A DNA stretch of 57,738 nt, counting the filler, from Dugesia japonica (lineage: Eukaryota), in assembly GCA_001938525.1 (NCBI GenBank). It is 5 parts of 5 records of this genome, joined end to end, with 100 filler letters (N's around TTAATTAATTAA, not from the genome) between each part and the next. Parts side by side here need not be neighbours in the genome. Positions count along the whole stretch, not along the records: positions 28,644 to 38,295 come from MQRL01592429.1; 4 more parts are not named here. One strand, written 5' to 3'. Positions 13,481-37,985 of this stretch are shown here, piece by piece. The notes below the pieces were generated by a model, which saw only the letters and a program-made list of their open reading frames with translations, made no database searches and was not told the DNA's origin. Both the position numbers and the translations under genes were made by a program. Positions within the stretch are counted from its first letter, which is position 1. Each line of letters begins with the position of its first letter.

Positions 13481-13554
13481 AGTAGATAGATAGTAGCACT
13501 AAAGAACAGCACACATTCAGCAACCCCCCGCCGACGTAATCGGATTATGAGATA
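13481..13554 (+). mobile_element. Polinton-type terminus (AGTAGATAGATAGTAG), cut by gap
   Basis: Same start and downstream aacccccccgcc...acgtaatcggattat block as the copy at 35919. Confidence 0.7.
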
Positions 13555-15660: not shown

Positions 15661-15759
15661 AATAAATAAAAATAAACATTAACCAATTAAGTTTTAATAA
15701 AATTAAATTAATTCTAAATTAATTACCACTATAAACATAAATCTTGAATAAACTACAAT

Positions 15760-15800: not shown

Positions 15801-16078
15801 CAAAAACCAAAAAAACAAATTTTGATCGAGGCTTTTATTTTAAATGAATTCTGAAAAAAAATCAATGGTTTCATCCAAGAATTATTCTCACAATAATTGC
15901 AATTGTAAAATAATTAATTTGAATTAAAAATTGTGTTTTTGTTTTTCATCAAATTTTACTCATTCGTTCTATGATCTTTGAACACTCCTGTCTTAGAGCA
16001 TATCAAATCCTTTGCATTCTTGATTGAGAAACGTGATGAAAGAAACTGTCTTTTCAAACATTTCGTACTTTTTCTGAT

Positions 16079-16349
16079 GTAAATTAGAGAAATTATTTTG
16101 CAGTTCTTCACAATTCATTTAGCTCTAGTTGTTAATGCATTGATTTCAGCATGGTTTACAATAAAAGAAGACTTCACATTAATAACGTTTTATTCAAAAA
16201 TACTTTTTTATTAAAAAGTAACACCAGTTGTATTATTTAAACAAATTTGACCAGTGTTTTAACTATGTGGTTGCATTAGCTTATGATGATTTTGTCTCCA
16301 CTGTCCAATAAATACTATTGTGATATTACCGAATTGTTTTGTTTATCAA
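16079..16349. repeat. 271-bp segment duplicated at 28273-28543
   Basis: Identical by eye apart from one N. Confidence 0.95.
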
Positions 16350-17205
16350 TATTCAACTGTTTTCTGCATTACTAAAATACTAATGACAATAATAATTAAT
16401 ATTATAAAAATAATATTTCATCGATTTTATCATAAAACATTTCAAATTCCCAAGAAACCTTTGACGTTTAATTTAAAATTCATTTCATCAAATTCACTCC
16501 AAAATGAAATTTTGTATTGAAAATTATATTCTACTTTTAATTCAAGATAATATCATTTATTAAAATTTTTGTTTAAAATATTTATTAAATTCAGTCCACA
16601 GTAAAATAAACGTTAAATTTAAATTGAAAACATTATCAAATAAATTATAACACGCAACGGTAGACATTTATTTATCTATATTAAAAAAGAATTTCCAATT
16701 GTACTCAGAAATATTTGTTGCATTTATTCTACTTACGTTCTATAAGTAAATTATGTTATTTTAATAAAACCATGTTAATAAATTTGAATTTCGGCAATGT
16801 TTTAATTTTTGAGTGTTAATTTTTCTTAGTTAGGCTTTTGTGAGATGGAACGAAATTTTAAAGTGTTGACTGAGGTTTGAACTTTCACCCCTTAGTGAGG
16901 TGTGTACTTTCACACCTTGATGTAAATACTGAATTTTCACAAACAAAATGCTTTGATGTGTTATTTTTGACACCTTATTCTATAAATAATGAACTTTCAC
17001 ACCTGAGATCAAGATTTTTCGTATTTATTTTATTCTCAGGTAAAACTAGTGATGAGCCCCAATAGTTACATATATTTTAACTTGTAAACCTTCATAGTTG
17101 ATGCGTGAAGTTTCTCACTTCAAGCTTGACTTCATTGATGAATCTTAATATTTTATCATTATTATTATATATCAAATTAATATCAAAAATACGTAAAGAA
17201 AATAT

Positions 17206-17676
17206 TTATTTACATGACGACAGATAATGTACACATAGTTTTAAACATTTTTTGTAAGCACAATAATCTCCATTATAATATTGACAAAAAATATTTTCCG
17301 GTATATTTAATTGAGGAGGCTCATCAGAGTTATAATTGACAATTCGAAGATTCGGGAAAAAGTGTTTGAAAGTATTTATTTTCTTTTCATTTACCTGATT
17401 ATTCACATAAAACAGCGCATTTTTTGGAATTGCTTTCAAGTCATTGATTATTCTAAATGGATCAAAGTTTGAATCTCTATCAATCCACCTGAGATGATGA
17501 CGCCAGAGCCGTAAGTACTCATTTGTTGTTTGAGAAGATTTTGATAAACTACCCATTGATTCCTGCATGACAAACATGTAATAAAACGGTTGAAGAATAT
17601 TATCTACATCCATTATACATAATTCTTTCACCATTATTATCCTGAAAGGCTTCATAATCAATAAAAACACAGACAT
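17206..17676 (-). CDS. Polinton accessory protein, DEDD/DnaQ exonuclease-like, N-terminus probably frameshifted
   Basis: VKELCIMD..HHLRW..C-terminal CQYYNGDYCAYKKC; an alternative frame at the start reads IDYEAFQDNNGE (DxE motif); abuts the protease gene. Confidence 0.55.
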   Translation of the reverse strand: MSVFLLIMKPFRIIMVKELCIMDVDNILQPFYYMFVMQESMGSLSKSSQTTNEYLRLWRHHLRWIDRDSNFDPFRIINDLKAIPKNALFYVNNQVNEKKINTFKHFFPNLRIVNYNSDEPPQLNIPENIFCQYYNGDYCAYKKCLKLCVHYLSSCK

Positions 17677-17699
17677 TTTAAATTTTATTGATAATAACA

Positions 17700-18056
17700 T
17701 TAAAATTGTTTATACTGGCTTTTAAACCATTCAATACAATATTTTCCATATAGAAATGTCAAAAAATTCTGATACATGATATGATTGTATTCAAAATGTT
17801 TTTGCATACGATCCAACTTTGTAACCAACAATGGTGGGTAAAAATTACAAATTTGTTCAAATACACGAATAATATTTGGTTTGACATGAATTGCAATCCA
17901 ATGCTCACCATCCAAATTCGAGGTATGTGTATTGATTACATAGGATCCGTTTTGTAAAAAGTCCAGTAATCGTTCTAGTGAAAACACTCCTTTAAATTTC
18001 TTTCTGCCGAAATCACGTTTCAGTATAGTTTCTATCAGAAAAGTACTATTAATCAA
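17700..18056 (-). pseudogene. Adenain-like (C5) cysteine protease, catalytic residues decayed
   Basis: FKGVFS, VINTHTSNLDGEHW, FEQ in place of FDS, YQ, LYGKYC in place of TCGxYC. Confidence 0.85.
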
Positions 18057-18123
18057 TAAATTCTATTTATAAAAACAAATTATACTTCATGCTATGCAAT
18101 ACACACATACATGTATGTATTGT

Positions 18124-19393
18124 TTATACAACCACTACTCCATTTTTGGTGATTTGAATTTCCAAATCAAATACTCCATATGCATACATTGTCACTGATT
18201 CCGTCAAGGCTTTATGGAAACGCACATCCAACTTAAGATTTCCGGTTTTTGGTAATTGCGGTTGATCAACTACAAAGTGCGGAGCCAATACAAAGATGAA
18301 AAACGTATAAGAGTCTTTAAATTCCTTCATTGAAATACAATTGTTTCGATTCAACAGACTCATATTACGAATAATAGATTAAAAATATGCCTGAATATAA
18401 TCAGTATCAAAGTCAGTAGTATATGTTTTTCGATAATCAACGTTTCTTGCCAAGCATATTGACCTTACACCAAAATTTGAGAATGTCGAACAAAATGAAT
18501 CATAATCACCACTTGCTTGTTTTGATGATTGGAAACCAATTAAAATAAATTTTGTAATCGTTCATCGGAAAAGATATTATCTTTATATTTCCTATGTGAG
18601 TTCTTTGGAATTGTAAAATGCACGATTTTTGTTTTCTGGTAGAATTAAATTGGATTTTGATGTTCCAATCCTTAACGATGTCCAGTCATAACCGACTGAT
18701 CAACACAAACACGTCGCACTAATAATTTGTCTTCTATAATGTAAGGTTGTGGACTTATCTCATGTTTTCCTGCAGCGTTTTAGGATATTGGTAAATTATC
18801 GAACCAACATTTCAAATCAATTTGATTGTCACATTGACTCATGGCAACAAATACTTTGGTTGGTCAAAGAAATTCAAATTTAGTGCACCACAGAGCGTTG
18901 GCTTTGCAGACGCTTTTATCGAGCCTTTTCTCTTGTAATCTTCTTTATGATAACCAATGGCTTCAAGAAAAGTGTTTTATGTATCCAATCCAAAATCCAA
19001 TGCGGCTTCAATTACCGCCTTTTGCATATACGTATCATTTGTATCTTCAACCTTTACATTATTTAGTGTTAATGATGCTTCTTTGAATAGAGTGTGAAGC
19101 AAATAATTGAAAGGAATCAGATTGGTAGTATCAGTTGATGCAAATTCCGTCCCATTATGTTTCACCGTCTTCATTTTTATAATGAGTAATGTATCATTCA
19201 AATCCAAGTAATCATTATTTGAACTAATAATATTGAATTCAATTTGTTGTCCAGCATACCCGGTTATAGAATCTTTTAGGTAGATTTCTTCAAATGTGGA
19301 TCTTTTAACAACGACTTGCGGTATATTGTGGTCAAAAAGTGATAACCAGTTTTTCCGGCATACATAATTTTAATTTTGCAAAGATGGTTCCAT
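18124..19393 (-). pseudogene. Polinton major capsid protein (double jelly-roll, PY/hexon-like), copy 1
   Basis: YLDLNDTLL, NYLLHTLFKEASLTLNN, C-terminal YTFFIFVLAP..GNLKLDVRFHKAL..YGVFDLEIQI; broken frames. Confidence 0.88.
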
Positions 19394-19517
19394 CTAATCG
19401 TCGTCTTTTGTTTATAGTCGATAGTATTTTATTTTTCCGTTTACGTATTCCACTGTCATGCTGTCTACCAACAACTTCTTTGATTATTGTGCTATGATTT
19501 TTTGGTTAGTTTTTTTT

Positions 19518-19842
19518 CTAAGATTTTTGGGATCAAAAAATGTTTGATCGGATCAAATTTTTTTTGATCCTGGAAATGTGAGTATTTAAAAATTTTAAAA
19601 TTTGAGTGTGGGTTGTTTAGGGCTTTTTTAAAAAGTAGGTCAAGTTGAGTTTGTGTGTGTGTGAAAGTATGGTTTGGGATTCAAGGAGTAGCTGGAGATC
19701 TTGCAAATAATTTTTTTGTAATTTTTAAGATTTTTTTGTTGTTGGACAAAAATTCAGTCTACATTGTTTAAAGGACTTATGGTGCGTGATGGATGGTTTT
19801 CACTAGAAGGATAGTTGAGCCATGGAACAGTCGTATGAGTCT
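19518..19842 (+). repeat. Copy of polinton subterminal sequence (matches about 32912-33240)
   Basis: Shared taagatttttgggatcaaaaaa...aaggacttatgg...acagtcg. Confidence 0.85.
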
Positions 19843-20352
19843 TTTTTTATTTTAAACATATAATTTTAATTAAATCTTATAATTAAATAAAAAATCTTTT
19901 TTATAATTACCTTTTTGAATTGTTGGTAATATTTTTAATTTGGATACGAAATAATTTCTTTCAAAATTGTCCAGCATTTCTTCTATAACAAGGTCCAAAT
20001 TCATTATTATTAATGGACATTTAAATTAATTTTGTTTATATTTAACATGCATCTGATATGCGCAATGCATGCTTACGTCTTGTACAATGTATGTTTGCAT
20101 TAAAGAAACTTAATAAATAATAAAAACAAACAAATGATTATAACAACTTTTATTTAAATAAATACAATAATATACAAGTTTGGTCCTAAAGAGGACCGGT
20201 TATGCTTTCACAAATGATTTTTTGAGAATGTTTTCTTTTTTAATCTAAATAAAAATACAATTATAAACCAAATAAATAACTACCATTGTTGAGGTTTTGT
20301 TCTTGACTAGGCTGGATCAAATGAACGGTTTTATGGAAAAATAAATTATATT

Positions 20353-23300
20353 ATACTAAAGTGACCAATTCCGTAACACAATTTGATCTCAGGATTTTGT
20401 TAGTGTTGATGTAATTCTCGAAAATTGAAGCCTGGCGGAATTTAATTCCTCGATGAACCTCTGATACTTTAACTCCTAAACTTAAATACATCGGCAGAAA
20501 TCTCCAGTGCACTACGTAATTGTTCTTTGAGTAGTGCGTTTACATTAATTTCTTTACTTTACAACCTGGAGTGCTTCTATGTTCTGGTGCAACCGACAAA
20601 TCATTCATATAATTATGAAATTCTGCAGGAATCATCATGTCTACTTCTAGAGTGTATCCACATGGCAATGAATTTAGGTCTGCATTTTTACACTCTTCCA
20701 ACACTTTATCTAATTCATCATAGACCCATTCAAATTTATCAAAGGGCAACTTGTGACTAAGTGCCCCACCATATAGATTATTAATATCTATATACAAAAG
20801 GTCAACATTTTCATTGGTGACAACATGGTGCTTGTTAACGAATATTAACTCTCCTCTTATACCTCCTTCGAAAAAGGTATACATATCATTATCTTGGAGC
20901 AGCTCAATCGGTTTTCCTAATGACATCAACGCAGATGCCAATGACATTCCAGGTATTTCAAAGAAATACAACGGTTCCAAGTTGTTGCGTGCTAAAGACT
21001 TTGCACGGATTTGCGGGAAAAAATCTGCTAACAAATACGCATCCAGTTTTAAATATAACATCATATAGTCCAACAAATTCGTACAGTTGAATATTTCCCA
21101 CATCGATAATGCTTTCTCATACTCTTCTCTACTAACATCCTCTCATTTTGGTTCCATTTGCTATGTTTCTTCATGAACCTGTAAACTTGTTGCAAAGCTG
21201 TACGGAAATATCTCCTTTGACTTGGTAATAATCTGATTCCTAAATTTCTCTGTAGTCAAAGGTGTCGCTTTTAATGATTTAACAGCAGAGTCCAATGAGG
21301 AATTTATGAACTGATAGCTGCCGATGAATTTAATTGTTGTTTGATTTTGTTGTACAATTAAATATAGAAATTTTTCTGATGTTGTTTGGAGGCAAGATAT
21401 TGTCTAATTCCTTAACTTATTAATACCATACTTGCGGATATGATGAAGATCATATCCTCGTAAATTATGAAAAACCACTGGTAGTTGAATATAAAGTTTT
21501 TTACTTAAATTGAATTGGTTGCATGCTGCTCCTCTATATTTCCCTGTGAAATGGTCATGGTCACGAAAGGGATCTCTTATTACCTTCTTGCATAAGTAAC
21601 AAATCTTTGCAGCTTTGAATTCTTTATCTTGATCCTTCGTTATTATAATTCTTTTTTTTCCTTTCATTTTATAATAAGGAAACACTATGTTTTCACTTAT
21701 TTTCTCCATAGCTTTTAAAAACTTATACACACAGTCATCTCAAATAAACTGTCTGTATGTTGATTCGTTGGTAATTGTTTTTACTAGCAACAGACCAGCC
21801 GAAAGAGGTAAATGTTTCTGGAAATGCTTCTCGTCTGGTGGTAAAACCGACTCAAATTCCGCATGTATCACAAAAGGTGGTGTTAAAGTGTTGGAATAAT
21901 CCCTAAAAATCAAGTTCTTCTCCGATGGAATCGTATACATTGTGGTACCTGTATGTATTTTTTCACAGATTGGTTCATGTTTCTCATATGCTACTTGATT
22001 TTTGAATCCACTGAGTCAGTTAGGACACCATATTAACCGAATGCAAACACCTAGTCTTTTAATATTCTTGTTTATTAGACTATTTAGATTTATTACTGCA
22101 GTGTAATGAAATCTTTTGTTATTTTCCAGTAAAAACAGATATATTTTCTCTTCATCTATTACTTTTGATCAGTGTTTTATATCCAAATTTGGATGTTTCA
22201 TGATTACTTCAGCATCTTCATCCTCCACTGACTCTTGATTTAACGATAGTACATTGATGGATAGTTCAGGATTATTCTTTTCGAATGTTGGTATATCAAT
22301 CAGTTTCATCGGCATATTCTCTTCTTTGAATATAAGCTGCGACATGTATTTTTTATATAATGTTATGTGGTGTTTATTCTTTTGTCTAACTTGATCACTT
22401 TTGGCGCAAGCAAGAATGCTGTAAATAAAACAGTATTTGTCATCGTTCCTGATGTTTACAATTGCTCTTTTCATTTTTAAATCTTTCGGTGATGGAATAT
22501 AATTTTTTCCTGAAAGTCGACAAATATCTGCAAATTCTGTGATCTTGAAATTAATTTCCAGTATTCTATTCAACATCCAACTGGAGCCTAGTTTGCTTCT
22601 TATTGTTATTTTCTCATTCAATTGGTTGATACCCTCTTCAAAAAAGTTATCAGTTAATGCAACGGCTCTATTTGATATCCTACAGGTTTTAAACTCAAGT
22701 TCTTCTCTTTCAGCAGTTGTTGTTAACCTTTTGAACTCAACATGTACCCCAAATTGTATTTTAACTTGTTTCATTTCTTCTATTGTCTGAAATAATTTGT
22801 TTACTATAGCTTCTGATAACATTATTTCACGACAATTCCATATTGAAACATCTATTTTAAGTATCCTATGACAGCGATACACATCTATAATAACTCCATC
22901 ATCCACAATATTATTTGCTGATCCACCAACTTGATTATATTTTCCATTTTTTCTACATCCATAAATTGTTGTAACATGATATCTTCTTCAGTATTCATTA
23001 TCGATCTACCAACTTGATTATTTTCCTCTTCCATATCAATGAGCTCATGTAACACGATATCTTCTTCAATGAGTTCATCAATTATTTCAAAACTGCTCCA
23101 ATAATTTGATTCAATATTGATTGCATCTTCTTCTTCTGGTTCCAAATTGATCATTTCTTCATTATATTTAACTACTTTAGTCTGTTCATCCTTGATTGTT
23201 ATTTCTTCAACATCATCTTCAATAACAATCGTTTCAAAAGGCTCATCCTTGATTATTATTTCTTCAACGTCATTCTCAATAACAATTATTTCAACTGGTT

Positions 23301-23370
23301 CATTCTTAACGGTTACTTTTTCTATCTTAATTCTCTTATTTACTGATGCTTCATAAAATTCACTATTCAT
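20353..23370 (-). pseudogene. Protein-primed family B DNA polymerase (pPolB), copy 1; motifs B and C deleted
   Basis: GSSW (TP-like), NDDKYCFIYS (OTU-like), HAEFES, RDHDHFTGKYRGAAC (EndoVII/HNH), FHNLRGYD, YLKLDAYLL, YIDINNLYG. Confidence 0.93.
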
Positions 23371-23730
23371 CTGCCTATATAATATTGATTTTAATATAAT
23401 TGTTTTACTTTTACTAAAACAAGTCAAGTGTTTTTATGTGTCCTATAAAAATTTGTATAGACACCTAAGCCTAATACCTTACAATTAGGATACAAAAAAC
23501 AAGTTATTCCATAAAACCTTTAACTATAGTATCCTTCCATGATACTATGGCATTTACCATTGTGATTCGCACTTGTGCAATGGTTGTATAATTTGCAATG
23601 TTCTAATAATTTAATAATAATAATAATAATAATATTATAATTTCAATAGTAATTTCAATAATAAAATAATGATTTTCATAACATTATTTTCTTTAAAAAA
23701 TATATATGCTTTGATATTTTTTCCAAAAGG

Positions 23731-23942
23731 AAAATCTCATTGGTATTGCAATTTTTAATAAAAAATCTCATTAGTGATGCAATTTTTCAAAATAAATCTC
23801 ATTAGTGTTGCAATTCTTAATAAAAAATCTCATTGTCGTTGCCATTTTTAATAGAAAATCTCTATGACAATGCAATTTTTAATAGAAAATGTCATTGACG
23901 TTGCAGTTTTTGAAAATAAAACATATTGATGATGAAAATTTC
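23731..23942. repeat. About 7 x 31 bp tandem repeat upstream of pPolB
   Basis: aaaatctcatt(a/g)gtg(a/t)tgcaatttttaata units. Confidence 0.85.
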
Positions 23943-24750
23943 TCAGAAAAATGATAAAAGCATAGAACTTTTTCATTTAAAAAAAAGCACTTCTTCTTCA
24001 TAACAACATAGAGCATTTCTTCTTAATATTATAGCATGGAACATAGCATATTTGTTCTTCATAATAAAATAGCATATTATTTTATTATTAAAATTTAACT
24101 TATAAAAAAAATATTTAAAAACATAATAAGATTAAAACTAACGTGCATCACCATTTAGGATCATCCGAGATCCTTCACCTTCAAGTCTCATTTGGTTAAA
24201 ATTCTAAATTACGTAATTAATTAATGAATAATATATAATAACAATCTTACAGCATAGTTGAAATAAATCTTCTTCCATTTTGTTTATATGAATTCATGAT
24301 AATTTTAAAAATTAAAATTTAATAATGTTAATAATAATAATAAATTACTTTAAGCTCTCTTGAATTGTTCACTTGTTTTATAAAGATAATTTTAAATTGT
24401 GATGAAAAAATAATAAATTTTACCAAGGTTTTTAAATCTAATCAATCAAATTCGAGCATGTATGTATTTTAAAATGTCAAATTAATTAAAAATATTGCAG
24501 ACATATTACTTTGCGGTATTTTAAATCAATTAAAAAAATACAGGCATATTACGTTGTGGTATTTTAAATTAATAGTATTTTTTACTAATAAAACGTGTCA
24601 AAATAATAATAAAAACATGTATTAATAGAACATTACTTACAAATTTTTTATAAATAAATGCTGTTATTTTAACCTTAGTTTTAATAAATAACAAAGATTT
24701 CATTTCAATAAAAGACATTTATTTTTTACAACAAGAACAAATAAATATTG

Positions 24751-25131
24751 TCAAGAATAATGTTGTTTTTTCAACCATAATAAATAGTGTTGACCACATG
24801 TAGTTGTAAATGGATCTTGATATCGGATTTTATTGTAGACTATTGGCTTCAATATTTTTGATAAGTGTGACACAAACATTGATGGATAATAAAATGCTAA
24901 TGAATCAAATACTAGTATTTGAGCAGGGTTATTGTAATCAGCTTTACAATGTTCTCCACCTAGATTTGATGTATGGGTATTGACAATTAAGGTATTGTTT
25001 ACTGGAATATATTTTTGAGGTTTATCTAACGCATTAACACCTAACTTTGCTGATCCTAGCCACTGCGATGCAATCCGATCAATTTGAATAGTACTATTAA
25101 AAACAAAACCATTAATATAATAACACTTACT
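24751..25131 (-). pseudogene. Adenain-like cysteine protease, copy 2 (absent from ORF track, no start codon)
   Basis: Manual translation: IVNTHTSNLGGEHC..VFDSLAFYYP..YNKIRYQDPFTTTCGQHYLLWL*; His, Asp, Gln and Cys present. Confidence 0.88.
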
Positions 25132-25163
25132 TCATAACATATACCAATTACACAACATATTGT

Positions 25164-26434
25164 TTACACTAATACTGGTCCGTTTTCTTTAATCTGAATT
25201 TCTTTTTCAAATACTCCATAAATTATAACATGTGTCGATGTTGTTAAAGCTTTGGCAAACTTGATTTCCAATCTCAAATTTACTTGTTGAGGTAATTGAC
25301 TCTGATTTATATCGAAATCTAGATTAAGAACAAATGTAAAGAAAAGATAATTATACTTAAAATCTTGAAGTGGTATTCCACAATTCATATTCTTATCCAA
25401 ATATCCCATATTTCTTACTATAGATTGCATATATGTTGTAGCATAATTATCCTTTGTAAAATCTTGAGTATATCTTTCTCGATAATCAGTGTTTTCTGAC
25501 AAGGAAACAGAAACAGCATCTAGATTTTGAAATGTTGAACTCGAGATTTTAAAGCTACCATTATATTGTTCACCACTTTGAAATGTAACCAGAATAAAGC
25601 TAGGTAATTGACGATCACTAAAGATTTTTTCCTTATAAAACGATGAACTATCTTTACTAATTGCAAATGCAACCATTTCTTGGTCCTTATTGGATAGACA
25701 TCATTTTGCTTTTTTAAACCCATTTGATGAGCTGCTAGTACTGAAGGTTCAACTCATACAGGTCTAACCATTAATTTTGCATTTAGTAATACATATTTAG
25801 GTTCATAAGCTGCAGATTCTAAACAAATCTAATAAGATGATAATTTCAACCGAATATAAACATTAACACCAGGAATAAGGTATTTCGGTTGATCTATAAA
25901 ATCTAGTTGTAATGAACCACATAGAGATAATTGTTTTGATGTTTTAATAGACTTTTTTCTATCTGCTTCTGATCCATATCCCATTGATATAAGACACATA
26001 TTCTTACTATCACCATTATAATTTATTACAGTTTTAATTAATGCTTTGTGAAGATAAGATCCATTTCCACCTTCAATTTTGAAATTATTAAACGAAAGAA
26101 TTACATCCTTAAAAAGTGTATGCAACATAAATTTACTTGGAACTGCATCATGGGTGTCAGTCAAATCTTTACCAGCGTTATTAACCACCTTCACGTTAAT
26201 ATACAATAAAGTATCATTCAAATCCAAATATTCTGTTTGAGATCCATATATAAAAAACTCTCCGTCACTTTGTGATTCAGAAATTGAATTCATAGGAAAG
26301 ACATCTTCGAAAGTACCACTTTCAATTACAGCTTGAAGAGATAGTCGATCAAAAATACATAATTCAATTTTACCGCAAATCATTTTTACAGTATTGTTCC
26401 ATGTCCTCTCATTCGTTTGTTTATCGTGATCCAT
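25164..26434 (-). pseudogene. Polinton major capsid protein, copy 2
   Basis: KIELCIFD..QAVIESG, EYLDLNDTLLY, QPKYLIPGVNV, QLPSFILV, NLRLEIKFAKAL..IIYGVFE. Confidence 0.92.
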
Positions 26435-26814
26435 GAGATTTCTTACGTTTTTTACTATTTTGTGGTGTCATGACTTGATTTGTTAGCATGTTAGTTATTT
26501 CAGATGGTATTTTATTAGTAATACTTTGCGGTTTGTTACTTTTGGAATCATACTGGTTACTTCGCTAGGTAATGATGACATAACATTTCCAATTTCAGCT
26601 AATGCATTTGATTTCAATGTTGGTAGTATTTTCCCATCATTAGCTAGTACATCTTGAGCTGTTTTCATACCAAAAGAACCATACGTTTAAGAATCGGTAA
26701 AGCAAATCTCCCTATTGTTCTTAGCCAACCAGATCCATACTATTTTCCAAGAAAGTAGGGTAATTCTCCACATGCTTGACTAGTACTATACAATGATACA
26801 ATATCAGGATTCAT
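26421..26814 (-). pseudogene. Polinton core protein (PZ/pVII-like)
   Basis: MNPDIVSLYSTSQACGELPYFLGK*YGSGWLRTIGRFALPILKR with basic tail KKRKK; lies between penton and major capsid. Confidence 0.7.
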
Positions 26815-26815
26815 T

Positions 26816-26960
26816 ATTTAGTTTTCTAAAATGTAAAGTTAAATGGGTTTTTGAATGTTTTGGAAATTTGATTAATTTTCCGTTATCATCGCGTATATTA
26901 ATTTCTATATTGTTTATACATGATGTTGCAATGGGTAAATACATTGGATTATCAACTACG
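26816..26960 (-). pseudogene. C-terminus of the minor capsid protein (penton/PX)
   Basis: VVDNPMYLPIATSCINNIEINIRDDNGKLIKFP..HLTLHFRK. Confidence 0.85.
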
Positions 26961-27940
26961 TACTAGTGAGAAATTACTAGTAGGTAGTGACAGAGGACCT
27001 GTAGAAAATGGAAGAAAACCAGTGGATAATGAGGGAATATCAGTGGATAGTTGCAGAAGACCATTAGAGAGTAAGAAATTACTAGTAGAGAGTAAGAGAA
27101 TGCCAGTGAGTAGTGGGTAAAAACCAGTGGTAAGTGAGAGAATAATAAGTGAAAATCAGTGGAGAGTAGATAATATCATTAGATAAAGGGAGAATACCAG
27201 TAGATAGTGAGATAATACTAGTGGATAGCGAAAGATTACTAGTGGATAGTGGGATAATACAATTAGATAGTGAGATAAAACAAGTAGATAGTAATAGAAG
27301 ACTTTTATAGAGAGAAAATATCAGTAGATAGTTGCAGAAGACCTGTAGACAGTGAGAGAATACCAGTAGACAGTGAGATAATACTAGTGGATAGTGAAAG
27401 ATTACCAGTGGATAGTGGCAGAAGACCTATAGAGAGTGTGAGTAGACCATTGGAGAGTGGAAAAATACCAATGGGAGTGGTTGAAGACCAGCAGACAGTC
27501 AGAGAAGACCCATAGAGAGTGGTGAATACTAGTCGAGAGTAAGAGAATACCAGTGGGAGTGGGAGAAAGTCAGTTAATGATTGAGAAGAGGGAAAAGTGA
27601 GAGAAAATAAGTAACTGTGAAAGAAGACCTGTGCAGAGTAGGAAAATACTAGTAAACAGTGAGAGCAAACCAGCGAGGTGTGTAGAAACCAGAAAGAAAA
27701 TGTTATAGACTAGTAAACAGTGTTAGAAAGCCAGTAAGCAAGACGCAATATCAGTGAAGAGCGAGAGAAGAAAGCTAGAGAGTGTGACAGAATACCAGCG
27801 AAGAGTAAGAGTGATAAAATAAATGTGAGTTAAAACTGGTAAAAGGTAGAATAAAGATATTAAGAATGAGAAAGGGCCAGTAAAGAGAGAGAATAAGCAG
27901 GTAAGAAAGTTAGAAGACCTGGAAAGAGCGAAGAAATATT
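26961..27940. repeat. Purine-rich degenerate minisatellite, unit about 21 bp (ccagtggatagtgagagaata)
   Basis: Recurring c(c/t)agt(a/g)ga(t/g)agt spaced about 21-22 nt over roughly 1 kb. Confidence 0.85.
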
Positions 27941-28750
27941 TTTACAATTTTAAATCTTTAATCCCTAATAATCATTACATGTTACTAAAATTAAAACAAC
28001 ACTAATGTGTTCATTATCTTATTTCCCATCCAACAATATCAGGTTTGACCAGAAAACATGATTTTAAATTGACGTTTGCCCTTTTGAGTGGGAAGGAGTT
28101 ATTTTAATAAATTCTGTATTATCGTTATGTTGGTTTAGTGCCATAAACCCTATATCTCGGCCACAAAGCATTTTTTGACAACGGTATTTTAAGCAATGTA
28201 TATGTAGTATATTAAGTCTACTTTTATTGTAAACCCAATCTTGTTTTTGAAACATATCTTGCATTTTCTGAGGTAAATTAGAGAAATTATTTTGCAGTTC
28301 TTCACAATTCATTTAGCTCTAGTTGTTAATGCATTGATTTCAGCATGGTTTACAATAAAAGAAGACTTCACATTAATAACGTTTTATTCAAAAATACTTN
28401 TTTATTAAAAAGTAACACCAGTTGTATTATTTAAACAAATTTGACCAGTGTTTTAACTATGTGGTTGCATTAGCTTATGATGATTTTGTCTCCACTGTCC
28501 AATAAATACTATTGTGATATTACCGAATTGTTTTGTTTATCAANNNNNNNNNNNNNNNNNNNNNNNNNNNNNNNNNNNNNNNNNNNNTTAATTAATTAAN
28601 NNNNNNNNNNNNNNNNNNNNNNNNNNNNNNNNNNNNNNNNNNNGTCATATTTTTTCACATGTCAAAATTATTTAATATTTTTATTAAATTAACAGCTTCG
28701 ATCAAAATATGGCTTTTGTATTTTATGTTTTTTTAGTTTTTAGTATTTAA

Positions 28751-28790
28751 GTCGATTCCTGATGAAGACAAAGTCGAAAATTCGAAATAC
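28751..28790 (+). ncRNA. Minimal type I hammerhead ribozyme (Penelope-associated)
   Basis: gattc-CTGATGA-a-GAC aaa GTC-GAAA-at-TC-gaaat: intact core, 3-bp stem II, palindromic AATT at stem III. Confidence 0.7.
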
Positions 28791-29396
28791 TATCAAGAAC
28801 TAAAATATATTAAAAAGAAAAACAATATTTTGATCGAGGCTATTAATTTAATGAAATCTCTGATACAATAATGAAATCTCTCACAATAATTCTTGTAATT
28901 TTAAAATTAATATTATTGTTTTCTGCATTTTATTTACTGTCACTGAGATGTACATACAATACCTCTGGAATTTAACTCTTCTTTGATCATAAATATTTAT
29001 TTTTATTACAATTAAGAAAAAATAATTACTAATTAACTATAATTATTTTTTAATTAAAATTAAAATACACATAAAATATGCCAATTAATTAACAATCCAA
29101 ATTACAATTTAATATTTATACAAAACAATATTATCTTAAGTAAATTTGACAATTTTCCAAAACCACTTGAATTCAATAAAATTCGGATAAAGATTTCTAC
29201 ACAAAATACTTTTTAAAATTTTTCATTCACATTTCCCAGATGTTTTTCAATAAAAATTAATTTTTGGAAAATTTATCGTTATTTTATTATGTTCTTAATT
29301 GATAAACAAGATTGCAAAAGGGTTTGTCTTTGAAACATCGAAATGTTTTCACAGCACATTTTCAGTTATCAAATCGACGATTAAATTTGTATTTAG

Positions 29397-29718
29397 AAAC
29401 ATCATGGCTATGATTCCTCAAATCAAAAAGGTGGCAAAGACTGCTCGTTCATCAGTTCAAGTCAAAAAGGAACAACTTATTATATTCTGTCAACAGAATA
29501 CCCAAGAATATCAGGTCCAGGATCACCCAGCAATTAGCAATTTTTTTGTAACGCGACATTATAAATACGCAAAACCACTTCATTATTCATTAATATTTGA
29601 TTTATTGCTTGCTATTTATATAATTAATAATGATTATAATTATAATTATGGTGATGATGACGACGCAGATAATTTCTCAATCAATATTTCAAGCATCATT
29701 ATTTATGTTATTTTACCG

Positions 29719-29788
<70 letters not shown>

Positions 29789-29840
29789 NNNNNNNNNNNN
29801 NNNNNNNNNNNNNNNNNNNNNNNNNNNNNNNNNNNNNNTT

Positions 29841-29871
<31 letters not shown>

Positions 29872-30870
29872 TTATTAATATTAATATTAATATTAATGAT
29901 TTTACTCGAATTTAAGACGATAATAAAATAAATATGCAACATAAGCATGAGAATAAATTGTTTTTAAGTAACACATAAGGAAATAATATGAATATTGAAT
30001 CTTTATTTAATGGAATTTATCAGTATACATTTGCTAAACATTTGGATATTCTTAGATAAAAGCTACTAAAATCGTCGTAAAAATACAAAATCACACGACA
30101 TATACTAGTTATAGGAGTAGATAAACATCATATTGACGTCTTCTGTTTTGTTCTTCGTCGTTAAACGTTTGGAAAACTAAAAAATCAAACAATTAATTGA
30201 AAAGTGGCTAGAGTATGACGTGATAAGATTTATTGTTATCATCATTTATTCTCCTGATATCTCATTGTTTGGTATCAATTGCAGACATGAGAAAACCATC
30301 CACATCACAACCAGTACTTCTAAAATTGGTAAAACTTCCAAATCTTCACTGAAAGATTTATTATTGATGTGGATCGAAAAAAACACAAAAGAATATCAAG
30401 TAGAATTTCTACTTTTAATATTATTTGTTATTTTTCTTAATGCTGCTAATGCTTCTGCCAATTAATGCTTTTTAAAAAATAAGTGTATGAGAAATATTTA
30501 TGAAAAATGGTTTAGAATGTCAGCATCACGAATTATTCGAAAAGTTGGGCAGACGGATTAGCATTTTGTGCACTGATTCACCATTTCTATCCGGATTCGT
30601 TTGACTACAAAACTCTTTCATCAAAAAATCCAGTTGCTAATTTCACTTTGGCGTTTGATACAGCAAAGTAAAATATTTTTCACAGACAATATAATGAAAC
30701 GAATTTTTAGGAAATGTGCTGGTATTGAACCTTTAATTGAACCAGAGGATATGATAACTCTTGAATCGCCCGATGAGAAATGCGTTTATACGTACGTTCA
30801 ATTCATGTATAATGCGTTGAAAAGCCATCCAAGAAATATGGTCAAATATGTAGCAAATTCGGAGGGATAA
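29397..30870 (+). CDS. Smoothelin/MICAL-like calponin-homology domain protein; exons 29397-29514 or 30285-30399, then 30516-30667 and 30711-30870
   Basis: Spliced: LKDLLLMWIEKNTKEYQ|NVSITNYSKSWADGLAFCALIHHFYPDSFDY..NFTLAFDTAK|KCAGIEPLIEPEDM..PDEKCVYTYVQFMY; GT-AG introns keep frame. Confidence 0.88.
29721..29875. repeat. (TAT)n microsatellite spanning a gap
   Basis: Direct reading. Confidence 0.97.
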
Positions 30871-31321
30871 ATTTTTCAGATGTTATTTAGAATAGATATT
30901 TGGTTGATAGATGTATTAAATAGATTATTGCTGTTTCCCTGTGAAATAGTATACATGTATACATGCACACACGCATCATGCACACATGCATATTTGTTTG
31001 TATGCAAAATTTATATTTACGTAATTATTTTAAATATAAAAACGATTTGAAAATGAAAATAATTTGGCGATCTTTTGCATTTTATCAAAAAATTATAGAG
31101 AACAAAAACTTTCAAGTAAACAAAAAATATCAACAAAACATACAAATCGAATTAATATTAAGAGAACAATTTGTTGAATGTTTGTTCGCAGAATAATACC
31201 GCATTAAATATTCATATTTGCACAAAAAATTTGATCAGGAATTCAATTTTCTAGATATTTAATCAATAATTCAAATTAATAATAAATATATTATTCAAAT
31301 TAATCAATTACTCAAATTAAT

Positions 31322-32785
31322 AGTAGATAATGGCGCACAGCGCCCACAATCCCCTGCCCCGCGGTAGCAAATTTTTGGGGAGAAATGTGATTGGCTGCAC
31401 ACAAATTTCCTGCAATTTGATTGGTCGTAAATTTTAGGTGTGTGATAATGTAATTGGGACAGTAATACTGCAATTTCATTGCCTAGATTATGTGTTGATC
31501 ACGCAATGAATGCGTAATAACGACGTCATAGTTACGTAATGATTACATATCCATTACCAAACAATTAGTTTTGTTTAAATGAAGTGAAAATAATGATTCT
31601 TTGTATAAATTAGTCGACATTTATGATTATTTGATTAAATTAAACAAAATTAATAATTTTCTTTGTTTCAATTAAATGAAATTATGAGTTTCTTAATGGA
31701 AAATCGATGGAAAAGCCTATGTTTCTTCCAATTAACAAAAATTGATCGAATGTGATTTTCTCACCGGCAATATAACCATTAAATATTCCCCGGACAACAT
31801 TAGTATTAGTGTTTTCTCAAACAATATTAATATTCACATTAGATTCTGCTACGGGAAATATTAATATCAATATTCGTTGCTCCAGGCAATATTAAAATTA
31901 TTTGCTCAGGTTTCACATATTGGATTCTCGGTGGTTCATACTATTAGTTGCTCCAGAGCTCATACTAAGAGATTTCTATGGGTTCACACTCTTGGCCACA
32001 CCCGACATTAGATGCACCCTGGTTCATACTATTTGATATTTCGACAATAGATGATAACAGACGCATACTATTAGATTATCCAATATTAGATTATTCCAGT
32101 TCCATTAATATTAGATGCTCTACGGTAACTAGCATTAATCGTTCACAATATTAACAATAAAATAATGAATCAAAACAATAATCACATTGGAAAAATTTAT
32201 TACATATTTATAACAAACATTTAATAAATTCAGTTTAATAAAAGACAGTTTAAATACATACAGTGTGTTTGGATTCTTCGTTTGATTGCTAAATAATAAA
32301 TAAATAAATTTCTAATAATTTCAAATAAATTCATTATTGATCCAAAGTCTTATTTATTGCGGTCAAACTATAATGTCCTTATGAAACACTAGTGTTTTCG
32401 TTTATCCATACTCCCTTATCGTCATTGTTGGTCAATGCTATTTTTGGACCCTTATAGCTATACAATTGGTGGTTTATTGTACCTATCCTAAATTTTTCTA
32501 CTGAGACCGATTGATTAATTTTGTAACAATCTAGACACGACTAGTGTGTTTAATCAGTATTTTTTAATGTTACCCTTTTAGCTTTCATGCTCTTCTTTTT
32601 GCTAAGGAGAATGTAACATTTTGGTCTTATAAAAACCCATTCCTTAAATATGTTACCCTTGCTTTTGTCTTTGAATTTGCCTATCACTGAGTTTAGATTG
32701 TTGTTATAAAGCAGATATTCTGCACTATAATTTGAAGTATCCAACAACTAATATTGTACTATCAATTCTAGCAATCTTTCTAATC
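31322..32785. mobile_element. Polinton end fragment: terminus, subterminal repeats, 3' end of pPolB
   Basis: AGTAGATAATGGCGC start, GC-rich block, gattgg boxes, then pPolB C-terminus on the minus strand. Confidence 0.65.
32367..32750 (-). pseudogene. pPolB C-terminal fragment
   Basis: LDTSNY, VIGKFKD, IRPKCY, KAKRV, ALTNNDDK, GHYSL. Confidence 0.9.
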
Positions 32786-34581
32786 AGTAGATAGATAGTA
32801 GCTCACGGTCACAATTTTAGGGGGACCACCTTCCCCCTCCCCGGGGGAGGCTCGACAACTGCTTACGATTGTGACCGAATTTTTGTGACGGTATTTCTGT
32901 GATGGTGTTTTTAAGATTTTTGGGATCAAAAAATTTTTGATCGTATCATATTTTTTTGATCCTGGTGGTGTGTGTATTTTTAAATTTTAAAATTTGTGTG
33001 GGTTTGGGTTGTTAAGGTGTTTTTTAAAAAGTATGTCAAGTGGAGTTTATGTGTGTGTGTGTAAGAATGAATTAGGACTCGAGGTGGAGCTAGAGATCTT
33101 GGAGATAACATTTTTGGTGTTTTTAAGATTTGGTTGTTGTTGGACGAAAATTCGGTTTATATATTGTCTAAAGGACTTATGGGGTTGGATGGATGGTTTG
33201 TCCTAGAAGTGCAGTAGCGCACGGTTACAGTCGAATGAGTTATCGTGGGGTGTTTTTTGGGAGGTTGTAGGATTGTAGTGGGTTGTTGTATTTTGTTGGT
33301 TGATGGTTTATTGGAGAGGTAATGTAATGGAGAATATTTTTGGATGTCGATTGTGACTTAATGACTGATTGGTTGTTTTTGAATTTGATTGATTGATATT
33401 TATAAGTAGTATAATAGTGTTTAAAAAATTTCGGGAGGAGGAGAGTGGTATGTGTGGAAAGACAATTAATTATCGGATTTTATAAGATTTATTTGAAAAT
33501 TTTCTGTTGGGGGTGTATGACGTCATAATTTTTTGAAATCTTTATTTTGCTTTAAAATGCTGTATTTTGCTTAAAATGATGAATTTGATGAAATTAATGT
33601 TATTTTTGTAAAATGATGTATTTTTGAACTGGGAAGAGGGGAGTCTTGATATTTTTTTTGACGGGAAATTTAAAAATTTATTTTTGCATAGGAAATTTAA
33701 ATTTTTTTTGAGCAGACTTTATATTTATGTATGTGATGGGGCTGTCTTGATATTTTGCATAATTGAGGGGAGTCTCTATATTTAGCATGGTATGATGGGA
33801 GTCTCTGTATTTTGCATGAGATGGGGAGTATAAAATTCATAGGCTCGTGATTTTTACAAAGTGTTGACAATCGTCAATCAAGCCTATACACTGGACAATA
33901 TTGACAATTTGAATAGGTGTATAGTTAATAAAGCAGAGAGAATAAAAGGAGAATATAATCTGGAGCCCTTTATGAATACAATGACAGAAATATCCAACAA
34001 CGAAATTTTGTTGTATCAATATAAGTTGGAGAAGACACTACAAAAGGGTCTTCATGCTTTGATAGAAATTCAATTTCTTGATAGTTTGGTGGTAATAATA
34101 TTATTATTAATATTAATACAATTATTATTATTTAATTAGGTATTAAGCAAAGAAGAAAACATTAAAAAACTTCAATTAGATCCAAAAGTCCTTGAAAACA
34201 TGTCATTTTTAATGAAAAACTTGGTAAGGTTTTTTGAACTTGATCCACCAACAGCAGCTATCGAGATTTATAAGGAAAAAAGTGAACATTACCAATAAAT
34301 TTAACATGGACATACAATATCAGAGTCCGGAGATAATTAATATAAACAGAACAAATGTTAAAATGCAAGCCCTATCCATTGCATTTGGTAAACAAAGACA
34401 ATGCCGTGTGGATAGGAAGAAAAATATCGGTAATATAGTTTTTTTTTATGTAAACTTATTAATTATTAGTGTAGATCCAGTATGCAATAAAAACCAGTCA
34501 CATCAACATTTTGTTTCTTGGTTGTAAAAGACTTTATTTGTTAAGTGTTGTAAATATTTGGTATACTTTTATGAGTTGTTT
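32786..34581. mobile_element. Polinton end fragment inserted into pPolB
   Basis: AGTAGATAGATAGTAG start; 33370-33850 is homologous to 50340-50790 of the element carrying pPolB copy 2. Confidence 0.75.
33855..34527 (+). pseudogene. Polinton accessory gene of unknown function with 48-nt intron (34092-34139); 5' truncated and frameshifted
   Basis: Paralogous to 51081-51843; removing the GT..AG segment joins FLDSLV|VLSKEENIK in frame. Confidence 0.65.
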
Positions 34582-35918
34582 AGTAGGTAGATAGTGGCGC
34601 ATATCCCCTCTTGATTTTATCCCTAAAAAAGCCCGCCTCCCCCACTTTTTAAAAAGGGGATAAAATTTTCAAAAGAAATAAAAAAAGAAGATAAAATTTT
34701 TAAAAGGGGATAAAATTTGTTAAAGAAATTTAAAAGGGGATTAAGTTTTTTAAAAGGGATAAATTTAAAAAATAAAGTAAAAGTGGTGTTTAATTTTTCT
34801 TGTGTGTTTAGTTAGGAATTTATTCGGTGAGGTGGAATGAGGTCAATTTTTGATTTTTCCGGTGAAATTGGTCAAATCTTTCCTCAGTTTTGGTCAGTTT
34901 GGGTTATTTTTGGAAGATTTGGTCAAGTATTTAATCGGGAATGGTACTTTGTTAATTTTCAGTCAATATTGGTCAAATATTTCCTCGGGATTACTTGGTT
35001 TGGGTAATTGGTTGAATTTTTTCTCGGGATCGGTAATTTTTGGGTGATTAAGGTGAAATTGGTCAAATATATCCTCGGGAATGATTAATTTGGGTAATTT
35101 GGTTAATTATTTCATCGAGAATGGACAGTTTGGGTTAAATTTTAAGGAACTTCATGATAAAAGTCGAATTTATTTAAATTTTAAAGTTTTTTAAGAATTT
35201 TTATCGGATTGTTTTATAGGAATCCGGGCAAACCGTTCATGTTGTTTAAATAATATGAAAATTTAAAATTTTTTTAATGAAACTTTTATGGGAATCTGGG
35301 TAAACAGTCTAAAATTTCGAAAAAATATGTTATATATCTCAGATTCCAAAGATTTGTATACCAAACTGCTGAGAATTTTACGGCGATCATTTCTCAGAAA
35401 TAAAAACTTTTCGAAAAACTATTACTATTCAAATAAGTTAAGAAAGTATCTATTAGATAAAGAAATTTTTGCTGATTCGAAATCTGTTAACCTAAAATCG
35501 CCAAAGTCAATACTCGATGAAATAAATAATGTTTTATATTGAAAAAATCTCAAAAGTTTAACTTTTATACTCAATTTTCTCTGTGTACATAACTTGTATG
35601 GTTTCAAATTTGGTATTATTTTACTCAGGAGAAAAGAGTGACTGTACAAAGTTAAAATATCGTCTCGGGAAAAATGCTTCCTAACGAATATGTATAACTG
35701 TCCTCCCAGATTTGATAACATTTTTTGAAAATATCAAAAGTACCTCAAAATTTATCTAACTTTATACTATTTGACTGGGAATTTATCGGTAAGTACGAAT
35801 ATTACTGTTAAAAATCACCAAACTGTATAGATAAAAAGTTATATAGAAAAACATGTATTTAAACAGAAAATAGTTTAATAATTTACTCGATTCAACCTAT
35901 TTTTTGTATTGGTTTACG
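34582..35918. mobile_element. Polinton-type end fragment with internal short repeats
   Basis: AGTAGGTAGATAGTGGCGC start; aaaaggggataaaattt and ttggtcaaatatttcctcggga repeats. Confidence 0.6.
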
Positions 35919-36793
35919 AGTAGATAGATAGTGGCGGGCATAGCCATCTGTGTGTGAACCCCCCCGCCCCCTTTACGTAATCGGATTATTACATAAGTAT
36001 GGCTATCATTTTCTAATGTAAATAGGCGGCGGCACACATTTGTATGCATTACATAATGTAATTAATTTTGTAGCGACAATATTACATAAGTGGCTATCAA
36101 TTTTTCCTGTGTATTTATCATTTGTCCTTTGAGCATTCTTTTAATGTATACTCTTCTTGAGCACCGTTATTTTTGATTTCATCTCTTATTATATTTTCAC
36201 TGGATAATTAATTCACTAAATTCATTCGTTTCTTTATTCTAAATAATGCTTCTCTTTAATTCTCCATTTCCCATTAATTTAATTCAAGTTTCATTTACTT
36301 TATCATTTTAATGAAATTGTTGCTTTCTTTTGATCTTTATTGTTTCTTTTACTACTACTATTTTTTTTATTACTTCATTTCTACTTGGCGACATTATCTC
36401 TTCTCTTTTCTAGTTCCTTTTAATTTTAAACATAAATTTCAATAACTGGCCTGTTTCAGTCCATGAGAGCAACACAACGCGATGCGGAAGAATATACTCA
36501 GCTCTCGGAAAGACTAGCCTGTAAGGTTTAAACAGTTATCGAGATGCAGCATATCAATCAATGAGATATATTAAGCGGCATATGAGATGAATTACTTATG
36601 AATTGTGATTGGAAATCGAGAGTACAACCTCATCTGTAATGACGAGTGATTGTTAATCGATCAGAGCTCGTGGTAACATCCATTTCATTCTTTAAAATTA
36701 AAATAAATTGAATAGAGATATTTATGTTGAGGTATTATAATATGAAATACTCTTATAGTATGAAGTACCATGGTGATGTTATATTATTTACAG

Positions 36794-37327
36794 ATGACNA
36801 ATTCNATNACCAAAGCAGAAGCAATGAAATCATACGCACTGGCCGGATATACATTCGAGACAACGCCATGTAACAATATGCCACCGTTGTGGTATTTGGT
36901 GACCATGGAGGGAACTGCGGTCGAACCATGGTGGATCACTAAGGCACAGCTACAGGTCACGAAGGACAAGATAACGGAGATGCGAGAGGAGATATTGAGA
37001 CAACGATAGCAATTCGCCGAACAGATAAAGAAGATTAATACTCGGCAGATACGCGTCGAACAGCAAGAAAGCCAACATCAATTGCAAGTGATGGAGATTA
37101 CTAGATGGCAGCAGGAGCGTGAAAAGGAACTAGTAACATTGTTAATACGAGTAACAGAACTCGCCAAGCAGCAGCAAACAGTTATTCAGTCCATGAGAGC
37201 AACACAACGCGAGGCGGAAGAATATACCAAGCTCTTGGAAAGACTAGCCTGTAAGGTTGAAACAGTGCTCCAGCAAGTGTTTGCATCTTTGGACGAGACA
37301 GTAGACATTGTGGAAACAATAGTGTGA
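36794..37327 (+). pseudogene. Coiled-coil protein of unknown function, one in-frame TAG at 37007-37009
   Basis: ORFs 36770-37009 and 37082-37327 share a frame; higher GC than flanks; Q/E/R/L heptads. Confidence 0.55.
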
Positions 37328-37679
37328 TCCTTGTGACATCAGCAATATAATTTTAGTTAANNNNNNNNNNNNNNNNNNNNNNNNNNNNNNNNNNNNNNNN
37401 NNNNNNNNNNACAGTGCTCCAGCAAGTGCTTGCACCTTTGGACGAGACAGTAGACATTGTGGAAACAATAGTGTGATCCTTGTGCCATCAGCAATATAAT
37501 TTTAGTTAATGATTTTCTGGTCTTAATTTTCTGTTTAAATAATTAGAGATGAATTTCATCTTAAGTTATAAGGAGTTAATTTATGAAGTTCTTGTTAACG
37601 AATACGATGAACGATTTTACATCTTAATAAATTATTTATTTAAGAATACTTATCAAATGCTATATCTCAATTATTTATA

Positions 37680-37985
37680 GTGACCGAGGCAAGGAAGCTC
37701 ACTGATATGACCGACATTAAAGCCAAATGGTTCGCCATACAGCGAAAATTAAAGAGTGAGATCGTAGAGTTACAGCAAACAAATCTACAGCTCAGAAATA
37801 AAATGGACAAGATGAAAGAAAGAGAGCTAAAACTATCGCAAACATGCCGGGCTATGGCCGATATTATCAAGACGTATGCTGATTGGAAAGGAGTGCTGAT
37901 ATCCACCGTTCGCATCCTTACCCAGGTATCAAGACCAGTCAAAGAAATCAACCAAGAAAAAGACATTATTAATATCGACGAATGA
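37680..37985 (+). CDS. Coiled-coil protein exon/ORF of unknown function
   Basis: 101-aa open frame following an acceptor-like ttatttatag; heptad LKSEIVELQQTNLQLRNKM. Confidence 0.5.
   Translation: MTEARKLTDMTDIKAKWFAIQRKLKSEIVELQQTNLQLRNKMDKMKERELKLSQTCRAMADIIKTYADWKGVLISTVRILTQVSRPVKEINQEKDIINIDE

What the first reader, a model, noticed from the sequence alone, without database searches (positions are those of the whole stretch)
31322..35990. Nest of polinton termini, all in one orientation
Seen: AGTAG(A/G)TA starts followed by a GC-rich block at 31322, 32786, 34582 and 35919 (also 13481), all on +. The 32786 end lies where a pPolB fragment stops. The 34582 end lies where similarity to the paralog near 51880 stops. 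Known: polinton TIRs begin with AG-containing short repeats used in protein-primed initiation. Inference: successive polintons inserted into each other near their ends with orientation bias, implying self-targeting or a trap locus.
Basis: partly seen in the sequence, partly recalled or inferred. Interest (0 to 1): 0.75.

Follow-up and report, generated by a model that had tools for sequence, protein, structure and literature searches.

The report
Russian-doll nest of Polinton ends
Four real transposon-type ends lie in a row within 4.6 kb of a repeat-rich genome, most likely because virus-like Polinton elements jumped into one another in turn; their shared direction is what the left side of any such nest looks like and does not show that the elements target each other.

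Summary
The motifs are real. A shared 17-mer occurs 4 times, against 0 in 100 shuffles. Older sequence is cut cleanly at them: a decayed polinton polymerase stops 2 nt before 32786, and paralog similarity stops at 34581. Contigs from other sequencing runs bridge 2 of the 4 junctions. The likely history is successive polinton insertions, seen from the left side only.

'All on +' is not orientation bias. An element with inverted ends shows this motif on + at its left end whichever way it lies. Only A and B carry orientation markers, and the 47744 host lies the other way. No right end or target duplication is in the window. Clustering is modest (p about 0.02), and 4 of 6 insertions into polinton DNA is unremarkable in a window about 40% polinton (p 0.19). 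Nesting of polinton-like viruses is already published. Self-targeting remains open but unshown; all four polinton-in-polinton ends sit 1.1-1.8 kb from the host element's end.

The parts
29839..31321 (.). Low-copy host flank left of the nest; holds the last exon of a host gene (stop near 30870; calponin-homology-like by eye, recalled, no Pfam hit)
   Evidence: Summed contig depth 0-32 in four runs, against hundreds to 1e5 inside the nest; Pfam negative
31322..32785 (.). Element A: outermost, decayed polinton; left terminus, about 1 kb non-coding, then the 3' end of pPolB
   Evidence: Terminus motif; host|A junction bridged by contig X3 record 10 (30643-31795, depth 10.3)
32337..32783 (-). [quoted passage not shown]
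   Evidence: tblastn to P0001 residues 381-529, 75% identity, E 5e-65; 67% DNA identity to 53358-53754
32786..34581 (.). Element B: left terminus, subterminal region and a broken accessory ORF (+, 33843-34524) of a polinton family whose other copies in the window run on into pPolB
   Evidence: 80-90% identity to 19515-19840 and 50344-51897; A|B junction bridged by contig X6 record 22 (32709-32878, depth 12.4)
34582..35918 (.). Element C: left terminus and gene-less subterminal repeats; polinton identity inferred from the terminal motif only
   Evidence: 17-mer match; B paralog similarity ends at 34581 with no microhomology; high depth
35919..36110 (.). Element D: left terminus, same family as the 13481 end; polinton identity inferred from the terminal motif only
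   Evidence: 17-mer match; 55/69 identity to 13481-13554; high depth
36111..38295 (+). Repeated sequence after D with broken coiled-coil ORFs; unassigned (interior of D, or another element)
   Evidence: Bin depth about 700-4900 (laid to 36790 only); no informative homolog
13481..13554 (.). D-family left terminus on another assembly piece, cutting the right arm of a foldback-type element
   Evidence: Arm alignment 13257-13480 against 12367-12105 ends at 13480
47556..47743 (-). Diverged homolog of B's accessory ORF in the opposite direction, cut exactly by the 47744 terminus
   Evidence: 68% DNA identity to 33887-34073; tblastx E 1.5e-4
47744..47850 (.).
   Evidence: GC 0.67 after the motif; relaxed pattern
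49056..49150 (.).

Best explanation
The four motifs are left ends of mobile elements that cut cleanly into the sequence before them, and they most likely record successive insertions of different Polinton families into one another (A, then B in A, C in B, D in C), seen only from the left because the assembly piece ends inside the nest. Shown: the motifs, the exact breaks at A|B and B|C, and the polymerase in A and in B's paralogs. Inferred: each end was joined by the element's retroviral-type integrase, and matching right ends with 6-bp duplications lie beyond this 9.65-kb piece. All ends read AGTAG on + because an element with inverted ends does so at its left end in either orientation. The pile-up likely needs nothing more than abundant polinton DNA and the harmlessness of landing in an already dead element.
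For: Motif far above chance. The pPolB match begins 2 nt from terminus B. B's paralog alignment ends at 34581 and the paralog continues with unrelated letters, so there is no microhomology. The same clean cut is seen at 13481 and 47744. No N gap lies between 29839 and 36798. Host|A and A|B are bridged by contigs at single-copy depth from two samples of one study; the host|A contig differs from the window at 24 of 1154 letters. Depth steps from at most 32 in the flank to hundreds in A and 5e3-7e5 in B, C and D (rough, not a copy number). The outer element is decayed, with 4 stops in 149 codons. Window polymerases belong to polintons, and relatives carry the full module with an rve integrase. 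Nested PLVs and virophages are published: 14 nested among 77 complete elements, one triple (bioRxiv 10.64898/2026.07.28.741278).
Against: No right end or TSD was found for any of 7 termini, so insertion is inferred. B|C and C|D are not bridged by any of the 32 listed contig pieces (110,088 not shown). C and D carry no polinton gene. Spacing is tighter than uniform placement of 7 ends predicts (p 0.019-0.049). Seven left ends and no right end is itself lopsided (p 0.016 if independent, 0.125 counting four pieces).
Confidence: 0.65

Rival explanations
1. True self-targeting: the integrase, perhaps through a C-terminal chromodomain reading silenced chromatin, prefers the subterminal 1-2 kb of existing polintons and so builds nests.
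For: All 4 termini that cut polinton-derived DNA lie 1.1-1.8 kb from the host element's end: 1464, 1796, 1337, and about 1105 in B coordinates for 47744. Three successive gaps of at most 1.8 kb have p 0.019. Integrases of 3 of 4 related elements give a weak Chromo match, E about 1e-3, below Pfam's cut-off. Plant LTR retrotransposons show family and region preference in nesting (PMC6911290, abstract only).
Against: 4 of 6 is not above a window about 40% polinton (p 0.19). Pieces of 9-15 kb can only show closely spaced ends. Subterminal sequence is far deeper in contigs than the polymerase part, so it offers more target. One polinton-polinton junction (19514|19515) lies deep inside an element, upstream of the capsid gene. 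Two termini cut host DNA or a non-polinton foldback. No integrase of these families is in the window.
Confidence: 0.15
2. Adjacent deletions or one-ended events: later elements landed farther inside or nearby, and deletions ending exactly at the new terminus pulled the ends together, leaving no TSD and no full nest.
For: Deletions are common in these copies. B lacks about 400 bp present at 50791-51188, and the S2 copy lacks the terminus, the ORF and the polymerase 3' part. No right ends are seen.
Against: Nothing positive requires it. The absence of right ends is expected from a piece that ends at 38295.
Confidence: 0.12
3. B|C and C|D are assembly chimeras among very high-copy repeats, or C-D is one composite element with an internal copy of the terminal motif.
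For: Neither junction is bridged among the listed contigs. B has an internal near-copy of its terminal motif at 33213 (15/17). Other copies join a C-like first 20 nt to D-like sequence (joints 34601>35975 and 34602>35962 in all four runs). C has no paralog in the window with which to test C|D.
Against: B|C falls on the first base of the motif without microhomology, which a repeat-collapse error would not favour. The two junctions that could be checked are real.
Confidence: 0.07
4. The motifs are GATA microsatellite seeds with no relation to element ends.
For: The 8-mer also occurs in a 21-bp minisatellite.
Against: At most two GATA units per site. A shared 17-mer and a C-run follow. Homology breaks coincide with the first base or lie within 3 nt of it at 4 of 4 testable sites.
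Confidence: 0.01

Closest known systems
Polintons/Mavericks of animals (pPolB with an endonuclease VII domain, rve integrase, protease, double jelly-roll capsid)
   Same: pPolB relatives carry PF03175 and PF02945. Window protease and capsid fragments match complete relatives L012, L013 and L043. Ends begin with AGTAG, like the (AGT)2 class (PMC8097293 section 7).
   Different: The sixth base is A or G, not T, and a short GATA run follows. In the window's families pPolB points toward the near end and is co-directional with the capsid genes, whereas L012, L013 and L043 have them convergent. Only fragments are present; paired TIRs and TSDs are not seen.
Nested PLVs and virophages of Halocafeteria seosinensis (bioRxiv 10.64898/2026.07.28.741278, section 8 read)
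   Same: Elements of this supergroup inserted inside one another, up to three deep, and inside other transposons.
   Different: Those are complete elements in a protist with marked TIRs and TSDs. Here four levels are inferred from left ends only, with insertion points close to the host element's end.
Nested plant LTR retrotransposons with autoinsertion and region preference (PMC6911290, abstract read)
   Same: Integrase-made nests; a model for how a preference for one region of an older element is tested.
   Different: A different class of element. Preference there rests on 1491 pairs; here there are 4.

Membership tests
Polinton/Maverick | [quoted passage not shown] | tested here: met
   A: 75% identity to P0001 over 149 aa. 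B: through paralogs 19515-23433 and 50344-57738, which continue into pPolB. Not present in C or D.
Polinton/Maverick | Retroviral-type integrase | tested here: inconclusive
   None found among window ORFs or in tblastx against relatives. Present in 4 of 4 tested relatives (rve, E about 1e-12).
Polinton/Maverick | Capsid and protease module | tested here: met
   Met for a B-family copy: 24760-26956 matches L012, L013 and L043; weak DJR-like Pfam hit, E 9e-4. Not within the nest itself.
Polinton/Maverick | AG-rich conserved end motif | tested here: met
   7 ends begin AGTAG(A/G)T; resembles but is not identical to the published (AGT)2 motif.
Polinton/Maverick | Paired terminal inverted repeats | tested here: inconclusive
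   No inverted partner for any of 7 terminal segments in the window; the assembly pieces end before partners would be expected.
Polinton/Maverick | 6-bp target site duplication | tested here: inconclusive
   0 of 7 searches for right-end motif plus upstream hexamer hit; needs the right ends.
Polinton/Maverick | Length 13-25 kb | not testable with these tools
   No whole genome held; the piece is 9.65 kb.
Self-targeting element or trap locus | Insertion into own kind above genome share | tested here: inconclusive
   4 of 6 against about 40% of the window, p 0.19; it would be p 0.001 if the genome share were 10%, which is unknown.
Self-targeting element or trap locus | Orientation bias of inserted elements | tested here: inconclusive
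   Terminus strand carries no orientation information. A and B agree; C and D have no marker. Of 6 marked fragments in the window 5 agree and 1 (47556-47743) is opposite (two-sided p 0.22 by arithmetic).
GATA microsatellite | Tandem GATA array unrelated to homology breaks | tested here: not met
   At most two units; coincides with breaks at 4 of 4 testable sites.

The most novel reading that the evidence does not exclude
Polinton integrases of this lineage home in on the subterminal 1-2 kb of earlier polintons, possibly by a chromodomain that reads the silenced chromatin laid over them, so that different families build Russian-doll nests at each other's ends. This would be the first target-site preference of that kind that my searches found for animal polintons.
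Probability: 0.15. Interest if true: 0.7.

Novelty: new member of a known kind. Interest (0 to 1): 0.3.

Why it matters
As it stands, this is a neat four-deep example of nesting among virus-like transposons. It is also a caution: same-strand termini say nothing about orientation for elements with inverted ends. If a genome-wide test showed a real preference for the subterminal region of older polintons, it would explain how 15-20 kb elements persist at high copy without hitting genes. It would also give the chromodomain-like tail of their integrase a testable role.

Tried and rejected
No whole genome was available, so TIR pairing, TSDs and flank statistics could not be done genome-wide.

The 17-mer scan of viral contigs gave 5 loci, all inside contigs, with no GC block and no pPolB; three share the same flanking text. 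I treated them as chance. The single-protein viral scan found no relative.

None of 49 pPolB loci (L006-L054) had an AGTAG(A/G)T start at a contig end. The 5 internal GC-filtered hits did not match the longer window motif, so the motif could not be tied to a complete element. No homolog of the A, B, C or D segments was found in those loci.

B's accessory ORF has no homolog found. The ORFs after D gave only low Atlas scores and two unrelated repeat proteins. The host exon search failed, so the organism's lineage was not established.

The absence of B|C and C|D from the listed contigs is not evidence against them, because 110,088 pieces were hidden. Bin depths are inflated by short contigs (274 at 35785 inside a bin of 676,100), so they were not used as copy numbers.

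A uni-strand piRNA-cluster reading was considered and dropped: RT and hAT-like fragments lie on +, polinton genes on -.

The genome-wide expectation of such nests ranged from 0.007 to 51 over assumed end counts and genome sizes, so it decides nothing.

Papers read in passages without bearing: PMC3014272, 10.1101/2024.01.15.575659, 10.1101/2025.02.07.637071, PMC8547959, PMC6431247.
Full report
Setting. The window is 28% GC and is five assembly pieces joined by N44-TTAATTAATTAA-N44 linkers: S1 1-13554, S2 13655-28543, S3 28644-38295, S4 38396-48949, S5 49050-57738. Whether the pieces are neighbours in the genome is unknown, and no whole genome is held. The four-end nest lies in S3, with no N between 29839 and 36798. 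The 13481 end is 74 bp from the end of S1.

Observation. The five stated starts are there, each followed by a GC-rich block. The bare 8-mer has 11 hits, 6 of them in a minisatellite or host DNA, so the GC block is needed. A 17-mer shared by four ends has 4 matches against none in 100 shuffles. A looser pattern, defined after seeing the sites, finds exactly 7 places: the five plus 47744 and 49056. All are on + and none on -. With a GC filter the shuffle mean is 0.09; without it the block-shuffle mean is 1.6, maximum 6. Beyond the first 14-17 nt and a C-run the ends are unlike each other, except 13481 and 35919, so several families are involved.

The motifs are element ends. At every site where the upstream sequence has a partner to compare with (4 of 4), similarity stops at the motif. 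The polymerase fragment in A matches P0001 residues 381-529 at 75% and begins at 32783. B matches 51616-51897 at 89% up to 34581, after which the paralog continues with unrelated letters. A reversed homolog of B's ORF stops at the 47744 end, and a foldback arm stops at 13480. C|D has no partner to test.

Read support. Contigs of four public runs (4 of 12 listed) give depth 0-32 over the host flank, 150-1,300 over A's non-coding part, and 5e3-7e5 over most of B, C and D's first 200 bp. These are rough figures, not copy numbers. One contig bridges host|A (30643-31795, depth 10.3, 24 other letters) and one bridges A|B (32709-32878, depth 12.4). Both come from one study, in two samples. B|C and C|D are bridged by none of the 32 pieces listed; 110,088 were not shown.

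They belong to polintons. A window polymerase fragment finds 82 relatives among 267 candidates, many with PF03175 and PF02945. Three related contigs (L012, L013, L043) match the window's polymerase, protease and capsid fragments, and L012 and L013 also carry an rve integrase. A is tied to polintons by its own polymerase. B is tied by two copies in the window (from 19515 and from 50344) that continue into pPolB. C and D are tied by the terminal motif alone. Vertebrate Mavericks end in (AGT)2 or (AG)3, with TIRs of 46-1,447 bp and lengths of 12.7-24.6 kb (PMC8097293, section 7 and passages). The ends here share the first five letters of the first class. Their role in protein-primed initiation is recalled, not tested.

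Orientation. An element with inverted ends reads AGTAG on + at its left end whichever way its genes face. In a nest, left ends collect on one side and right ends on the other, so four + ends in a piece that stops inside the nest are expected. Orientation can be read only from internal genes. A and B agree (polymerase 3' end toward the captured terminus); C and D have no marker. Over the window, five fragments agree (two in S2, A, B, S5) and the one cut at 47744 is reversed; 5 of 6 gives p 0.22. Seven left ends and no right end gives p 0.016 if all were independent, but 0.125 when the four pieces are counted.

Targeting. Of 6 ends with readable flanks, 4 cut polinton-derived DNA, 1 a foldback element and 1 host DNA about 450 bp after a stop codon. 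With about 40% of the window polinton-derived by my own intervals, p is 0.19; it would be 0.001 at a 10% genome share, which I could not measure. Given 7 ends in the window, three successive gaps of at most 1.8 kb have p 0.019, and four ends within 4.6 kb have p 0.049, before allowing for the locus having been picked for this pattern.

The near-end pattern. The one feature that stays interesting is that all four polinton-in-polinton ends lie 1.1-1.8 kb from the host element's end. Three things weigh against reading this as targeting. Short pieces can only show close ends. Subterminal sequence is much more abundant than polymerase sequence in the contigs. A fifth junction, at 19514|19515, joins B-family sequence lacking its first 122 bp to the interior of another polinton, upstream of its capsid gene. 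A possible targeting device exists: integrases of 3 of 4 relatives give a C-terminal Chromo match at E about 1e-3, below the curated cut-off. No integrase of the window's families was available, and chromodomain-guided integration by LTR elements is recalled (search listing only).

Mechanism. Shown: motifs, clean cuts, polymerase identity, two junctions in other samples, decay of the outer element. Inferred: integrase-made insertions in the order A, B, C, D; right ends and 6-bp duplications beyond 38295; accumulation by abundance and neutrality. No right end or duplication was found in the window for any of 7 ends. Adjacent deletion therefore cannot be excluded, and deletions are visible in these copies.

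Comparison. Nesting among such elements is in print. In Halocafeteria, 5 PLVs and 9 virophages lie inside other viral elements, one three deep, among 77 complete elements (bioRxiv 10.64898/2026.07.28.741278, section 8 and passages). Cryptophyte PLVs carry nested retrotransposons (PMC12220804, passages). Region and family preference in nesting is documented for plant LTR elements (PMC6911290, abstract). Eight searches showed no paper reporting self-targeting or orientation bias for animal polintons. The library lacks most subscription papers, I did not read the original descriptions by Kapitonov and Jurka or Pritham et al., and I opened no supplements; the closed bioRxiv supplements may hold positional detail on the Halocafeteria nests. 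Earlier notes of this scan list 25 'polinton nest' findings in at least 6 other genomes (8 shown). They are unchecked leads that point the same way.

Verdict. The feature is real and correctly located, and it is probably a four-deep nest of polinton families. The orientation argument fails, and self-targeting is neither shown nor excluded. New member of a known kind; interest 0.3.

Noticed in passing
   Followed up: yes
window 17209-26956: Two polinton fragments head to tail in one direction: protease-capsid of one, then a B-family copy lacking its first 122 bp, its accessory ORF and the polymerase 3' part, followed by its own protease and capsid genes.
   Followed up: partly
window 33213-33229: Internal near-copy (15/17) of B's terminal motif about 430 bp inside the end; loose ends of 32 contigs at 33205 show a related motif in other copies.
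   Followed up: partly
window 11915-13480: Foldback-type element with long inverted arms and a tandem array of a 16-17 bp palindromic unit; its right arm is cut by the 13481 terminus.
   Followed up: partly
window 26948-27700: 21-bp minisatellite whose unit contains the first nine letters of the terminal motif and reads as a 7-residue repeat on +; it abuts the S2 polinton fragment.
   Followed up: no
window 33843-34524, 51063-51840: Accessory ORF of the B family between the terminus and the polymerase, with no homolog found in Pfam, the protein collection or the Atlas.
   Followed up: partly
window 20365-26467 against L012, L013, L043: In the window's family the polymerase is co-directional with protease and capsid genes, whereas the nearest fetched relatives have them convergent: an inversion of the polymerase module.
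   Followed up: no
window 16051-16349 and 28245-28543: 299-bp repeat at 98% identity, the second copy ending at the end of piece S2.
   Followed up: no
window 37262-37509, 53799-54648, 56929-57600: Duplicated sequence on both sides of 50-N gaps, likely unmerged contig overlaps or collapsed paralogs; gene fragments there may be mosaics.
   Followed up: no
window 4284-6686, 8789-9454, 44943-45206: Decayed LTR-retrotransposon RT/RNase H, a DUF4371 (hAT-like, recalled) fragment and a kinase fragment.
   Followed up: no
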